Notes: generated by a model not told the origin, from the sequence alone. Positions 15,868-19,222 are shown, counted from the stretch's first letter. The stretch is DNA of 28,752 bases from Thermodesulfovibrionales bacterium (GCA_044450345.1 JBIOIY010000040.1:1-28752); one strand, 5' to 3'. Translations and numbers: made by a program.

Positions 15868-15916
15868 TATCTCAGAACTTTTTCCAACAATATATACAAT
15901 GAAAGGGGGGAGAATT

Positions 15917-16192
15917 ATGACGAAGACGGAGCTTATCGAAAAGATAGCATTGGGTGCCGGCCTCAGCAAGGCTGATGCGACAAGGGCCTTTGATGCCACG
16001 CTCGACGCGGTCAAGGCGGCGTTAAAGAAAGGGCAGAAGGTTACTATCGTCGGTTTCGGGACCTTCGGAGTAACTAAGAGGAAGGCCAGGAAAGGGCGTA
16101 ATCCCAGGACCGGGCAGGTTATCAATATACCCGCTGCCAAGACTCCGAAGTTCACCGCAGGCAAGGCTTTAAAAGACGCGGTTAAGAAATAA
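15917..16192 (+). CDS. hup: DNA-binding protein HU
   Basis: MTKTELI...GFGTF...[12 protein letters not shown]...[21 protein letters not shown] before ATG 15917. Confidence 0.96.
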
Positions 16193-17512: not shown

Positions 17513-17797
17513 TTATTTTTTAAATAAATCGTCCAGTTTTTTCAGTGCGTCGGCCTTGCCCGCGTCCGAAGTTGCCCGGCGTTCCTGGGCAAACACAAAG
17601 TAATCGCAGAAGTTCGCCTTTTCCCTGGACCTCTGGAATTCGGCCTTCGGTTCAGTGCATTTGTTATGAGCCCTCTCTGAGAAGAACCTGCAGTTCATGC
17701 AGATATGCAGATCACCGCCGCATTTGGGGCATACCGATTTACGGGAAAAATATTTGTCTACCTCGATCCGTTTGCCGCAGAGTGCGCAGATATTCAT
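17513..17797 (-). CDS. Cys-rich hypothetical metal-binding protein (94 aa)
   Basis: SD GGAGGAG. Eight Cys arranged CxxC-x15-CxxC-x6-CxxC-x10-C-x16-C. Confidence 0.85.
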   Translation of the reverse strand: MNICALCGKRIEVDKYFSRKSVCPKCGGDLHICMNCRFFSERAHNKCTEPKAEFQRSREKANFCDYFVFAQERRATSDAGKADALKKLDDLFKK

Positions 17798-17868
17798 TTC
17801 CTCCTCCTTCCAGTGACATCAGAATTATGATAACAAGAGAGCTGCGGATTTGTTAACTCTCAATCTTA

Positions 17869-17897
17869 TTGACAGCCTTTATCTGCTGTGATATCTT
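17869..17897 (+). promoter_or_regulatory. Sigma70-type promoter of the small peptide gene
   Basis: TTGACA (17869-17874), 17-bp spacer, and TATCTT (17892-17897) with an extended TGn. Confidence 0.75.
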
Positions 17898-17929
17898 GAA
17901 ATAAGAATTCTCAAAAAAGGAGGATCTAT

Positions 17930-18007
17930 ATGGCCTGCAAATCAAAGGGACCGTGCGGCACCGCAAAAAAGGCTGCTCCGAAGACGGCGAAGAAGACCAA
18001 GAAATAG
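17930..18007 (+). CDS. 25-aa basic, two-Cys small protein MACKSKGPCGTAKKAAPKTAKKTKK
   Basis: SD AAGGAGG at 17917-17923, 6 nt before the ATG. It has its own promoter upstream and a terminator downstream, and falls below the ORF-track length cutoff. Confidence 0.8.
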   Translation: MACKSKGPCGTAKKAAPKTAKKTKK

Positions 18008-18029
18008 CGTTATCGCCAGTTTCTCTGTG

Positions 18030-18060
18030 AAAAGGACGGCTCGCGCCGTCCTTTTTTTTT
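18030..18060 (+). terminator. Intrinsic terminator after the small peptide gene
   Basis: AAAAGGACGGC-TCGC-GCCGTCC followed by nine T. Confidence 0.9.
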
Positions 18061-18085
18061 GGCGTCTTTTCCGCTATCCTAATAG

Positions 18086-19222
18086 GTGACTATGTTCGAA
18101 AAGGGATTGCGAAGGTTAGAGAAGGGCAAATTGCTCCGTTATTTGCTGACGAGGGGATCGCCCCAGGGACCGGTCATTACAATCGGGGGCAAACGATATC
18201 TCAACTTCTCGTCCAATGATTACCTCGGACTCGCCTGCCGCCCTGAACTCCTGAAGGCCGCTGCCGAAGCAGGGAAGAGATTCGGGTTTGGTTCAGGCGC
18301 ATCGAGGCTTCTCGCCGGGGGCAGTTCCATCCATGAAAGACTCGAAAAGATGACCGCTGCCTTCAAAGAGACTGAAGCGGCATTGGTCTTCAATTCCGGC
18401 TATGCGGGCAACACCGGGCTAATCCCGTCTCTAGCACCCGGGCCCTGCGCGATCTTCAGCGACGAACTGAACCACGCGAGCATTATAGACGGATGCAGGC
18501 TGAGCGGCGCGAGGGTCCTTGTATTCAGGCACAGGAATGCCGGCCATCTCGAAGAGTTGATGAAGAGGGAGAGAGGAGGGCAAAAGGTCGTCGTTACGGA
18601 CTCTGTCTTCAGCATGGACGGGGACATCGCCCCGCTTCGGGACCTCTATTCCCTCTGCCTTCGGTATGATGCGGTCCTATACATCGACGATGCCCATGGG
18701 ACAGGAGTGCTCGGGAACGGCAAAGGGGCGCTTGCACATTTCGGTCTTATGCCGGGGCCGTGGATAGTACAGATGGGGACATTCTCGAAGGCGCTCGGCT
18801 CTTTCGGGGCTTTTGTTGCAGGGGACAAGGACGTCGTCGCCTGGATAACGAACACCGCCCGCAGTTTTATTTTTTCCACCGCGCTTCCGGCTCCGGTTGT
18901 GGCGGCGTCGATGAAGGCGCTCTGCATGGTGAAAAAAGGACGCGGACTTGTGCGAAAACTCTGGACGAACAGAAAGAACCTTGCGGGAGGACTCAAAGAT
19001 ATCGGCTATGATGAAGGACCGAGCGAGACGCCGATCATTACGATCAAACCTGGCACTATCAAAGAGACCATCGCACTGTCTGAATATCTGTGGAGAAAGG
19101 GGATTTATGCCCCCGCGATTAGACCCCCTACGGTAAGGGAACCGAGGCTCAGGATCACGGTGACCGCGGCCCATACGGAAAGGCATATCGGCAGGCTTAT
19201 CGGGATACTGAAAAGATTTTGA
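18086..19222 (+). CDS. bioF: 8-amino-7-oxononanoate synthase
   Basis: NFSSNDYLGL, GASRL, SGY, DELNHASIIDG, VFSMDGD, DDAHG, PLP lysine motif GTFSKALG, and AIRPPTV. Confidence 0.92.
   Translation: MTMFEKGLRRLEKGKLLRYLLTRGSPQGPVITIGGKRYLNFSSNDYLGLACRPELLKAAAEAGKRFGFGSGASRLLAGGSSIHERLEKMTAAFKETEAALVFNSGYAGNTGLIPSLAPGPCAIFSDELNHASIIDGCRLSGARVLVFRHRNAGHLEELMKRERGGQKVVVTDSVFSMDGDIAPLRDLYSLCLRYDAVLYIDDAHGTGVLGNGKGALAHFGLMPGPWIVQMGTFSKALGSFGAFVAGDKDVVAWITNTARSFIFSTALPAPVVAASMKALCMVKKGRGLVRKLWTNRKNLAGGLKDIGYDEGPSETPIITIKPGTIKETIALSEYLWRKGIYAPAIRPPTVREPRLRITVTAAHTERHIGRLIGILKRF

What the first reader, a model, noticed from the sequence alone, without database searches (positions are those of the whole stretch)
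17869..18060. Unannotated stand-alone gene for a 25-aa Cys/Lys-rich peptide with an H1-like tail
Seen: a complete monocistronic unit missed by the ORF track, with TTGACA-17-TGnTATCTT promoter, AAGGAGG SD, ORF MACKSKGPCGTAKKAAPKTAKKTKK and a strong intrinsic terminator. The peptide has 9 Lys, no acidic or aromatic residues, a C-x5-C head and an AKKAAPKTAKK tail. Established: such Lys/Ala/Pro tails condense DNA in histone H1, chlamydial Hc1/Hc2 and mycobacterial HupB. It does not resemble any small ribosomal protein I recognise. Inference: an abundant nucleic-acid-binding microprotein whose Cys pair could oligomerise it through metal or disulfide bonds, making it a redox- or metal-switchable nucleoid peptide. 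A tailless HU is encoded 1.7 kb upstream. This is the strongest candidate for an undescribed system in the window.
Basis: partly seen in the sequence, partly recalled or inferred. Interest (0 to 1): 0.8.

Follow-up and report, generated by a model that had tools for sequence, protein, structure and literature searches.

The report
Unannotated lysine-rich two-cysteine microprotein gene
A tiny, strongly signalled gene for a 25-residue lysine-rich peptide with two invariant cysteines is real and conserved in one group of anaerobic Nitrospirota bacteria, is missing from protein databases, and most likely makes an abundant peptide that coats DNA or another cellular polyanion.

Summary
Window 17930-18007 (+) encodes MACKSKGPCGTAKKAAPKTAKKTKK. 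It has a TTGACA-17-TGnTATCTT promoter, an AAGGAGG ribosome-binding site and a strong hairpin-plus-T9 terminator.

The gene is real. I found 40 distinct loci, and 49 distinct peptides of 23-32 aa, all in Thermodesulfovibrionales-type Nitrospirota. Every frame is intact and every indel is a multiple of three. pN/pS is 0.23, and third-codon positions vary most. The ribosome-binding site is kept in 40 of 40 loci and the promoter template in 34 of 39.

It matches nothing in Pfam, NCBIfam, Rfam or the PDB, and 0 of 10 exact peptides are in a 15-billion-protein collection.

Function is inferred, not shown. The tail is 35% Lys and 0.2% Arg with no hydrophobic residues, and its length varies. That fits a histone-H1-tail-like polyanion binder better than an rRNA-embedded ribosomal protein. 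The invariant Cys-x5-7-Cys head suggests metal or redox chemistry, which is untested.

Neighbouring genes vary, so the gene is free-standing. bioF, however, may depend on read-through of its terminator.

The scan holds no sequence look-alike. Two analogous Lys/Cys microproteins were noted in other phyla.

The parts
17869..17897 (+). Sigma-70-type promoter: -35 TTGACA (17869-17874), 17-nt spacer, extended -10 TGaTATCTT (17889-17897). The transcription start is inferred to be near 17904.
   Evidence: One search gives 10 of 12 consensus matches with TG present. The same template, TTGACA-17-TGnTAnnnT, is found in 34 of 39 homologous loci that have at least 70 nt of upstream sequence. Only 17 such sites exist in the 3.19-Mb genome, among them those of HU, S12, ATP synthase b and an S30AE-CSD protein.
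17917..17923 (+). Shine-Dalgarno sequence AAGGAGG, 6 nt before the ATG
   Evidence: Read directly. An SD-like motif lies within 20 nt of the start codon in 40 of 40 distinct loci.
17930..18007 (+). Microprotein ORF of 25 codons plus TAG: MACKSKGPCGTAKKAAPKTAKKTKK. It has a head (M-A-C-K-x-K-G-x0-2-C-G-T) and a Lys/Ala/Thr/Pro tail.
   Evidence: Searches give the ORF. Forty distinct loci keep the frame intact, and indels occur only in multiples of 3. pN/pS is 0.23 overall (head 0.155, tail 0.31), and codon-position entropy is 0.68/0.30/1.27. M1, C3, K4, K6 and the second Cys are invariant in the 19-row alignment A1.
18029..18060 (+). Intrinsic terminator: A-tract, 7-bp G+C core stem (18034-18040 / 18045-18051), UCGC loop, then a run of nine T (18052-18060)
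   Evidence: One search gives -25.6 kcal/mol with z = -3.6, and 0 of 200 shuffles fold as well. In my script, 29 of 40 loci have a clean hairpin directly followed by at least 4 T. The simple scan did not list it.
18086..19222 (+). BioF-like PLP acyltransferase gene (an alternative ATG lies at 18092). It is a context gene and may be transcribed by terminator read-through.
   Evidence: TIGR00858 scores 419.3 bits against a cut-off of 426.45. Aminotran_1_2 at 6.5e-60. No promoter-like site lies between 18061 and 18091. It lies downstream of the peptide gene in 18 of 39 loci.
17513..17856 (-). Divergent neighbour: a 94-aa Cys-rich zinc-ribbon-like protein (17513-17797) with its own promoter-like site (17856-17827), back to back with the peptide promoter. 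Context only.
   Evidence: One search finds TTAACA-18-TATCAT with TG. One search gives only weak zinc-ribbon hits, all below their cut-offs. Homologues lie directly upstream in 10 of 39 loci.

Best explanation
Window 17930-18007 is a real, free-standing, probably very highly expressed gene of a new microprotein family. The family is confined to a Thermodesulfovibrionales-type lineage of Nitrospirota, and record titles of close relatives include Candidatus Sulfobium.

The 23-32-residue product has two parts.
- **Head.** An almost invariant N-terminal motif, M-A-C-K-x-K-G-x(0-2)-C-G-T.
- **Tail.** A low-complexity Lys/Ala/Thr/Pro stretch that varies in length and has essentially no Arg, acidic or hydrophobic residues.

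Most likely mechanism (inferred):
1. The peptide is intrinsically disordered.
2. It neutralises and bridges a cellular polyanion through the tail. DNA of the nucleoid is the most likely target, in the manner of histone H1 C-terminal tails and of bacterial KPAA/AKK-repeat proteins.
3. The two-cysteine head gives a specific contact. That could be a shared metal site between two peptides, a redox-sensitive loop, or docking onto a partner.

What is shown:
- The gene and its purifying selection.
- The conserved promoter, SD and terminator.
- The lineage restriction and the absence of any known homologue.

What is inferred:
- High abundance.
- Polyanion binding, and the choice of DNA over RNA or polyphosphate.
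- Any role of metal or redox state.
For: **Real coding gene**
- 40 distinct loci, and 49 distinct peptides in all, keep the frame intact. Indels occur only in multiples of 3.
- pS is 0.77 against pN 0.18, a ratio of 0.23. Third-codon-position entropy is 1.27, against 0.68 and 0.30 for positions 1 and 2.
- An SD motif is present in 40 of 40 loci.

**Probably highly expressed**
- 34 of 39 loci carry TTGACA-17-TGnTAnnnT.
- The same template occurs only 17 times in the 3.19-Mb genome. Those sites include HU, ribosomal protein S12, ATP synthase b, a cytochrome c and an S30AE-CSD protein.

**Free-standing**
- Downstream genes vary: BioF-like, secretin, RelA/SpoT, CoA-ligase-like, class-V aminotransferase, CHASE2 and an AHAS small subunit.

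**H1-tail-like rather than ribosomal in composition**
- The family is K 35.4%, A 17.5%, T 14.6%, P 5.9% and R 0.2%. It has no F, W, Y, L, I, H or D.
- This genome's own L34, L36 and two S21 proteins have K/(K+R) of 0.44-0.79 and contain hydrophobic residues.
- Tail length varies from 23 to 32 aa in total, and the tail evolves faster than the head (pN/pS 0.31 against 0.155). That fits non-specific electrostatic binding.
- One long-tailed relative, P0005, gives a sub-threshold match to Pfam HC2, 'histone H1-like nucleoprotein' (27.2 bits against a cut-off of 40).

**Literature**
- PMC9239181 (passages read): short KPAA-repeat peptides bind DNA in vitro, and AlgP's tail resembles that of H1.
Against: - No direct evidence of transcription, translation or any binding. 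No RNA-holding run was available.
- No family, structure or homologue supports any function.
- The composition argument cannot separate DNA from RNA, polyphosphate or acidic membranes.
- The peptide's size (25 aa) is that of lineage-specific ribosomal peptides.
- The head is the most conserved part, which implies a specific partner that the nucleoid model does not explain.
- Distribution is patchy. In the order sample: f1 19 of 22, but f6 4 of 21, f12 3 of 21, and 0 of 21 in genus g25. Three well-assembled f1 genomes gave no copy even at E <= 10 (G001, G009, G205). The peptide is therefore dispensable.
- The genome also encodes HU and a second Lys-rich small protein, so a further nucleoid protein is not obviously needed.
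Confidence: 0.4

Rival explanations
1. It is a lineage-specific ribosomal or ribosome-associated peptide. It would be comparable in size to bTHX, bS22 or bL37 and would lodge on rRNA, with the Cys pair contacting rRNA, a metal or a neighbouring ribosomal protein.
For: - It is 25 aa long and polycationic.
- It has strong, conserved expression signals of the class that also drives the S12 gene.
- It is near-universal in family f1: 19 of 22 genomes, plus a divergent copy in the closed genome G018.
- Small lineage-specific ribosomal proteins are a known phenomenon. Search listings and abstract starts only: PMC10081302, PMC10085706, PMC6133939.
Against: - There is no similarity to any PDB chain, ribosomal ones included. 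Both the profile and the single sequence give 0 hits at E <= 10.
- Arg is virtually absent (0.2%) and there are no hydrophobic or aromatic residues. This genome's own small ribosomal proteins use both K and R.
- Tail length and sequence drift freely, which is unlike a peptide fitted into an rRNA pocket.
- It was not found in most families of the order, nor in three well-assembled f1 genomes.
Confidence: 0.25
2. It binds another polyanion or surface, such as polyphosphate granules (as AlgP does) or acidic membrane lipids, or it acts as a general RNA chaperone or coacervate former.
For: - The same composition argument applies.
Against: - No conserved gene neighbour points to polyphosphate or membrane biology.
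- The peptide has no hydrophobic or amphipathic element.
Confidence: 0.12
3. The head is the functional part. The peptide would be a small metal, Fe-S, sulfur or redox carrier or chaperone that uses its Cys pair, and the Lys tail would serve only for solubility or targeting.
For: - The head is the most constrained part (pN/pS 0.155), and both Cys are invariant in all 40 distinct loci.
- The carriers are anaerobes of a sulfate-reducing lineage, judging by record titles and the abstract start of PMC5812927.
- Two other Lys-rich/Cys microproteins noted by this scan in other phyla were read as metal-linked. Those are unchecked leads.
Against: - There are only two Cys.
- No metal-transport, Fe-S-assembly or sulfur-metabolism gene is consistently adjacent.
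- A tail that makes up more than half of the peptide and always keeps its Lys content is unlikely to be a passive appendage.
Confidence: 0.12
4. It is a regulatory leader. A Lys-codon-rich upstream ORF and its terminator would attenuate transcription of bioF, or whatever gene lies downstream.
For: - bioF starts at most 31 nt after the T-run, with no promoter-like site in between.
- A BioF-like gene lies downstream on the same strand in 18 of 39 loci, and in 16 of those 18 the gap is at most about 200 nt.
- 9 of the 25 codons are Lys.
Against: - The unit keeps its promoter, SD and ORF where the downstream gene is convergent or unrelated, for example secretin, CoA ligase or RelA.
- Selection acts on the amino-acid sequence of the head and not only on the Lys codons.
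- I did not see an alternative antiterminator pairing. No systematic search was made for one.
- A consensus promoter with a perfect SD is unusual for a leader of a biotin gene.
Confidence: 0.06
5. It does not code for this peptide. The locus would be a small RNA, or the functional product would be the hydrophobic antisense ORF (24 aa, 17926-18000, minus strand) as a type I toxin.
For: An antisense ORF exists in the window, and antisense to Lys codons is necessarily Phe/Leu-rich. The terminator region gives weak sub-threshold Rfam sRNA matches, the best being 26.8 bits against a gathering score of 55.
Against: - 26 of 40 loci have no ATG-started antisense ORF of at least 18 aa, and the remaining 14 are unrelated to one another.
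- The codon-position pattern and pN/pS fit the plus frame.
- The SD and ATG are conserved in 40 of 40 loci.
Confidence: 0.02

Closest known systems
Histone H1 C-terminal tail and bacterial H1-like repeat proteins (chlamydial Hc1/Hc2, Pfam PF07382; Pseudomonas AlgP/PhaF KPAA repeats)
   Same: - A Lys/Ala/Pro/Thr low-complexity polycation with almost no Arg and no hydrophobic residues, and with variable repeat number.
- KPAA peptides bind DNA in vitro (PMC9239181, passages read).
- A long-tailed relative, P0005, gives a sub-threshold HC2 match.
   Different: - It is 5-10 times shorter, with only 12-20 tail residues.
- It has no helical or globular domain.
- It carries a unique, invariant two-Cys head.
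- The peptide itself has no HMM match.
- DNA binding is untested.
Coxiella burnetii ScvA / Hq1 (small basic DNA-binding proteins of the small-cell variant)
   Same: Very small, basic, lineage-restricted proteins described as DNA binding (PMC4766238, one passage read).
   Different: No sequence relationship was found. ScvA's composition (Arg/Gln-rich) is recalled, not checked here. There is no evidence of developmental regulation in this case.
Lineage-specific small ribosomal proteins (bTHX, bS22, bL37)
   Same: A size of about 25-35 aa, strong positive charge, frequent omission from annotation, and restriction to particular phyla (listings).
   Different: - There is no similarity to any ribosomal chain in the PDB.
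- The peptide is Lys-only rather than Arg/Lys mixed.
- The tail varies in length.
- The peptide is not universal, even within its own order.
Polylysine/cysteine microproteins noted earlier by this scan (e1-2049393 in Omnitrophota; e1-1308176)
   Same: Unannotated, conserved microproteins of about 27-53 residues from uncultivated bacteria that combine a Lys-rich stretch with clustered Cys (AI notes, unchecked).
   Different: - The scan holds no sequence look-alike of this peptide.
- Those peptides carry their Cys at the C-terminal end, in clusters of more than two, and one of them sits in a metal-transporter operon.
- This one has an N-terminal Cys pair and no fixed neighbour.

Membership tests
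Histone H1-like bacterial nucleoproteins (Pfam HC2, PF07382, and relatives) | Sequence match to the family model above its gathering score | tested here: not met
   The peptide matches 0 Pfam families at E <= 1, and two 31-aa homologues match 0 at E <= 10. Only the singleton long variant P0005 reaches 27.2 bits against a cut-off of 40.
Histone H1-like bacterial nucleoproteins (Pfam HC2, PF07382, and relatives) | Lys/Ala/Pro-rich, Arg-poor, low-complexity basic region | tested here: met
   Across 49 distinct peptides the composition is K 35.4%, A 17.5%, T 14.6%, P 5.9% and R 0.2%.
Histone H1-like bacterial nucleoproteins (Pfam HC2, PF07382, and relatives) | Binds and condenses DNA | not testable with these tools
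   This needs EMSA or condensation assays with the synthetic peptide.
Small lineage-specific ribosomal proteins (bTHX, bS22, bL37) | Sequence similarity to a chain of a solved ribosome | tested here: not met
   The profile of A1 and the single peptide each give 0 hits at E <= 10 against 177,635 distinct PDB sequences.
Small lineage-specific ribosomal proteins (bTHX, bS22, bL37) | Physical, stoichiometric presence in purified ribosomes | not testable with these tools
   This needs gradient fractionation or cryo-EM of a carrier organism.
Small lineage-specific ribosomal proteins (bTHX, bS22, bL37) | Near-universal presence within the lineage that has it | tested here: inconclusive
   Family f1 has it in 19 of 22 genomes, plus a divergent copy in G018. 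Elsewhere in the order it is scarce: f6 4 of 21, f12 3 of 21, f2 1 of 11, f5 1 of 19 and 0 in eight other families. No copy was found in G001, G009 or G205 at E <= 10.
Transcription-attenuation leader peptide | A fixed downstream operon whose pathway matches the enriched codon | tested here: not met
   The downstream gene is BioF-like in 18 of 39 loci. Elsewhere it is secretin, RelA/SpoT, a CoA ligase, an aminotransferase, CHASE2 and others, several of them convergent. None is a lysine-pathway gene.
Type I toxin-antitoxin (antisense hydrophobic peptide) | A conserved small hydrophobic ORF on the opposite strand | tested here: not met
   26 of 40 loci lack any ATG-started antisense ORF of at least 18 aa, and the others are unrelated to one another.
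Zinc ribbon / metallothionein-type metal peptides | Four or more metal-ligating Cys/His in one chain (CxxC pairs or Cys clusters) | tested here: not met
   The chain has only two Cys, spaced by 5-7 residues, and no His. A shared site between chains remains possible but is untested.
RiPP precursor peptide | Adjacent, co-conserved maturation enzymes or transporter | tested here: not met
   Neighbours vary, and no radical-SAM, cyclase, protease or ABC-exporter gene recurs among the annotated neighbours. Only 15 neighbour proteins were scanned against Pfam.

The most novel reading that the evidence does not exclude
The peptide would be the smallest nucleoid-associated protein yet described. Two or more 25-residue chains would be joined through their invariant Cys-x5-7-Cys heads, by a shared Zn or Fe site or by disulfides. 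The result would be a multivalent H1-like cross-linker whose power to bridge DNA (or polyphosphate or RNA) is switched by metal supply or redox state in anaerobic, sulfur-cycling Nitrospirota.
Probability: 0.12. Interest if true: 0.8.

Novelty: new variant of a known kind. Interest (0 to 1): 0.55.

Why it matters
**Annotation.** The family shows that a strongly signalled, purifying-selected gene can be absent from 15 billion predicted proteins simply because it is shorter than gene-callers allow. In the searched databases it appears only as mis-started, over-long ORFs. Adding it would correct annotation in a whole order of environmentally widespread soil, peat and groundwater sulfur-cycling bacteria.

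**Biology.** If it is a nucleoid or ribosome component, it is probably among the more highly expressed products of these cells. It would then be a cheap target for study, because a 25-mer can be synthesised. That would open a route into how minimal polycations organise bacterial DNA or RNA, and into whether a two-cysteine module can make such binding responsive to metal or redox state.

**Limits.** All carriers found are metagenome-assembled or uncultured, and the function is still inferred from composition alone.

Tried and rejected
**Searches that found nothing**
- Rfam: 5 matches, all far below their gathering scores.
- Pfam and NCBIfam on the peptide: 0 families.
- PDB by profile and by single sequence: 0 hits.
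- ESM Atlas: best score 0.80 to an unnamed cluster. That is below any useful level.
- Full-text search for four head strings: 0 papers.
- Earlier scan notes by sequence and for this genome: nothing.

**Database searches that returned only artefacts**
- With the 45-aa over-extended database ORF P0002 as query it found only P0002 and P0001.
- With P0005 as query it found only P0005 itself.
- The search for related loci with A1 confirmed only 2 of 119 pattern stretches. Its tblastn confirmation uses a single short query, so I used a DNA pattern scan instead.

**Expression**
- No RNA holder was listed among 23 runs, and read laying was not used. This says nothing about expression.

**Structure and complex prediction**
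- Complex prediction with two copies of a 30-aa homologue plus Zn gave no verdict, score 0.03 against a mark of 0.42. That is neither for nor against pairing.

**Readings rejected**
- Antisense toxin.
- Dedicated bioF leader.
- Paralogues in the same genome: only a chance-level second hit, E 0.94.
- The hit in G007 at E 0.7 lies inside a 123-aa open frame and is not a copy.

Full report
**1. The observation**

Reading 17700-18200 and listing ORFs confirms an ATG-started ORF of 25 codons at 17930-18007 (+). It encodes MACKSKGPCGTAKKAAPKTAKKTKK. The peptide has 9 Lys, two Cys five residues apart, and no acidic or aromatic residue.

- **Promoter.** The consensus scan finds TTGACA at 17869-17874, a 17-nt spacer and TATCTT at 17892-17897, preceded by TG. 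That is 10 of 12 matches. Two promoter-like sites were found in 1.1 kb, against 0.7 +/- 1.0 in shuffles. The other one points the opposite way, toward the divergent 94-aa zinc-ribbon-like gene.
- **Ribosome-binding site.** AAGGAGG lies 6 nt before the ATG.
- **Terminator.** The simple terminator scan did not list the claimed terminator. Folding 18005-18065 gives a 12-pair stem with a 7-bp G+C core, followed by nine T. The energy is -25.6 kcal/mol with z = -3.6, and 0 of 200 shuffles fold as well.
- **Neighbours.** HU at 15899-16192 is tailless. The next gene is BioF-like: 419.3 bits against a cut-off of 426.45 for TIGR00858.

**2. Is it a gene?**

A 301-nt DNA query matched 19 of 41 related genomes. 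Within the window's own family that was 18 of 24, and in other families 0 of 16.

In every full-length hit the same small frame is open. A 19-row protein alignment shows M1, C3, K4, K6, the second Cys and several Lys to be invariant. Profile searches gave the following.

| Sample | Genomes with a match | Detail |
|---|---|---|
| Order | 29 of 201 | f1 19/22, f6 4/21, f12 3/21, f2 1/11, f5 1/19, none in eight other families |
| Phylum | 22 of 401 | only one hit outside the order (same class); large families 0/64, 0/75, 0/28 |

A closed f1 genome that first seemed to lack the gene holds a divergent 31-aa copy. Three other f1 genomes (G001, G009, G205) gave nothing even at E <= 10.

A degenerate DNA pattern (SD plus back-translated head) was scanned over one genome for each of 185,579 species. 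It hit 43 stretches, all in records titled Nitrospirae/Nitrospirota, Nitrospiraceae, Nitrospira sp., Thermodesulfovibrio/Thermodesulfovibrionales or Candidatus Sulfobium. All 43 encode an intact peptide.

In total I hold 49 distinct peptides of 23-32 aa.

Over the 40 distinct loci held:
- Pairwise pS is 0.771 and pN is 0.179, a ratio of 0.23. The head scores 0.155 and the tail 0.31.
- Mean column entropy by codon position is 0.68, 0.30 and 1.27.
- All length changes are whole codons.
- An SD motif is present in 40 of 40 loci, and TTGACA-17-TGnTAnnnT in 34 of the 39 with enough upstream sequence.
- A clean hairpin directly followed by at least 4 T is present in 29 of 40. Several of the other 11 show hairpins with interrupted T-runs by eye.
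- The antisense frame is not conserved: 26 of 40 loci have no ATG-started antisense ORF of at least 18 aa.

This is a protein-coding gene under purifying selection. It is not an sRNA and not a chance ORF.

**3. Is it known?**

No. The searches came back as follows.
- Pfam and NCBIfam: 0 families.
- Rfam: nothing near threshold.
- PDB, which contains the solved bacterial ribosomes: 0 hits by profile and 0 by single sequence at E <= 10.
- A profile search of 1.84 billion representative proteins: 6 hits.
  - Five are gene-caller artefacts that start upstream and carry the peptide at their C-terminus.
  - The sixth, P0005, has the head followed by a long Arg/Lys/Ala/Pro tail. It is a singleton on a 568-bp contig. 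Its tail gives a sub-threshold match to Pfam HC2, 'histone H1-like nucleoprotein' (27.2 bits against 40).
- Exact look-up: none of ten peptides is in the 15-billion-protein collection.
- Full-text search for four head strings: no paper.

**4. Context**

In the window's family the usual order is Na/Ca exchanger (+), zinc-ribbon-like protein (-), peptide (+), BioF-like gene (+). Among the 39 loci examined, the BioF-like gene follows in 18, the exchanger precedes in 12 and the zinc-ribbon protein in 10. Some of those loci are the same place fetched twice, for example L014 and L052.

Elsewhere the downstream gene differs. It may be a convergent secretin, a convergent CoA-ligase-like gene, RelA/SpoT, a class-V aminotransferase, a CHASE2 protein, an AHAS small subunit or an Rrf2 regulator (in which 15 neighbour proteins were scanned).

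The gene therefore moves as a self-contained unit. No neighbour can be taken as a functional partner.

One local point qualifies the word 'monocistronic'. bioF begins at most 31 nt after the T-run, and no promoter-like site was detected there. It may therefore be fed by terminator read-through.

**5. Expression level (inferred)**

The exact promoter template occurs only 17 times on both strands of the 3.19-Mb genome. By my arithmetic, about 1.5 would be expected by chance with equal base frequencies.

Besides the peptide, these sites sit in front of HU, ribosomal protein S12, ATP synthase subunit b, a cytochrome c, an S30AE-cold-shock-domain protein and a second Lys-rich small protein of 61 aa.

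This places the peptide in the company of housekeeping, high-output genes. No RNA data could be obtained.

**6. How it most likely works**

The family's pooled composition is K 35.4%, A 17.5%, T 14.6%, G 8.6%, C 7.7%, P 5.9%, S 5.4% and R 0.2%. It has no F, W, Y, L, I, H or D. A peptide like this cannot form a hydrophobic core, so it is almost certainly disordered and acts by charge.

The near-total exclusion of Arg is not a genome-wide bias:
- ORFs of at least 300 aa have K/(K+R) of 0.50.
- The genome's own L34, L36 and two S21 proteins have 0.44-0.79 and contain hydrophobic residues.

Lys/Ala/Pro/Thr tails with variable repeat number are the hallmark of histone H1 tails and of bacterial H1-like proteins. 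KPAA-repeat peptides of AlgP bind DNA in vitro, and AlgP also associates with polyphosphate granules (PMC9239181, passages read). [quoted passage not shown]

My preferred reading is therefore a minimal H1-tail-like polyanion binder, with DNA as the most likely target.

The head is the most constrained part and must do something specific. The obvious candidates are a metal site shared between two chains, a redox-sensitive loop, or docking on a partner. None of these is tested.

My layered odds:

| Claim | Probability |
|---|---|
| Real translated gene | about 0.95 |
| Polyanion binding through the tail | about 0.65 |
| DNA / nucleoid | about 0.4 |
| Ribosome | about 0.25 |
| Other polyanion or surface | about 0.12 |
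| Head-centred metal or redox role | about 0.12 |
| Leader function | about 0.06 |

**7. Comparison and novelty**

The peptide works like an H1-type tail or a ScvA-type small basic protein, or possibly like a bTHX/bS22-type ribosomal peptide. It is not a member of any of these families by sequence (see the membership table).

It is a new family of a known general kind, the small basic nucleic-acid-binding proteins. Its head is unprecedented among the proteins compared here.

Earlier notes of this scan record two analogous but unrelated Lys-rich/Cys microproteins in other phyla (unchecked). They hint that such peptides may be a recurrent, overlooked class in uncultivated anaerobes.

**8. Verdict**

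It is conserved, lineage-restricted and unannotated. Interest is moderate to good (0.55). It would rise sharply if metal- or redox-switched nucleoid binding, or a ribosomal location, were demonstrated.

Noticed in passing
window 18052-18092: The BioF-like gene (GTG at 18086, ATG at 18092, with AGGTGA just upstream) begins at most 31 nt after the terminator's T-run, and the scan found no promoter-like site there. bioF may depend on read-through from the peptide promoter. In 16 of the 18 loci with bioF downstream, the gap between the peptide's stop codon and bioF is about 200 nt or less.
   Followed up: partly
window 17513-17856 (- strand): A 94-aa Cys-rich zinc-ribbon-like protein with three CxxC pairs gives only sub-threshold Pfam and NCBIfam hits. 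It is transcribed divergently from a back-to-back promoter (TTAACA-18-TATCAT, 17856-17827). Homologues hold the same position in 10 of 39 loci.
   Followed up: partly
G000:C1:209830-210015 (- strand) = L100:531-716: A second small Lys-rich protein of 61 aa (23 K, 1 R, with KKAVKK-type repeats) lies behind the same rare promoter template. It has no Pfam family above cut-off. Copies were found in 11 of the 24 other genomes of the family and in none of 16 from other families of the order. It is another candidate nucleoid or polyanion-binding protein.
   Followed up: partly
G000:C16:38774-39307 = L106: A 178-aa protein combines an S30AE / hibernation-factor domain (residues 7-99) with a C-terminal cold-shock domain (residues 116-177). 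It also lies behind the strong promoter template.
   Followed up: no
Homologous loci L002-L037 (downstream of the peptide ORF): The terminator stem is conserved at sequence level across several genera (GGATGGC-NNNN-GCCATCC, flanked by an A-run and a T-run). That is more than a terminator needs, and could reflect slow drift or an extra role.
   Followed up: no
G016 (C14 and C217) and G211 (C24 and C17): Two genomes show the peptide unit on two contigs with identical peptides. In G016 one copy is cut off by a contig end. This could be a true duplication or assembly redundancy.
   Followed up: no
L041:1501-2430: In one genome of another family the peptide ORF has no terminator, and a CHASE2-domain gene follows 7 nt later. 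There the two genes look operonic.
   Followed up: no
P0005 (database protein, 94 aa, on a 568-bp contig): A singleton relative carries the same head fused to a tail of about 50 residues rich in Arg, Lys, Ala and Pro, followed by a Gly/Ala/Glu-rich end. It is either a natural long form or a stop-loss. The tail gives a sub-threshold Pfam HC2 match.
   Followed up: partly
G000:C21:17334-17492 and G000:C2:207988-208143: The genome carries two ribosomal protein S21 paralogues, both above the Pfam cut-off.
   Followed up: no
G000:C9, minus strand (position 62345 on the reverse complement): A 38-aa Lys/Asp-rich ORF (MGDKGGKKDKDKDRKQK...) preceded by an SD-like motif. It was not examined further.
   Followed up: no
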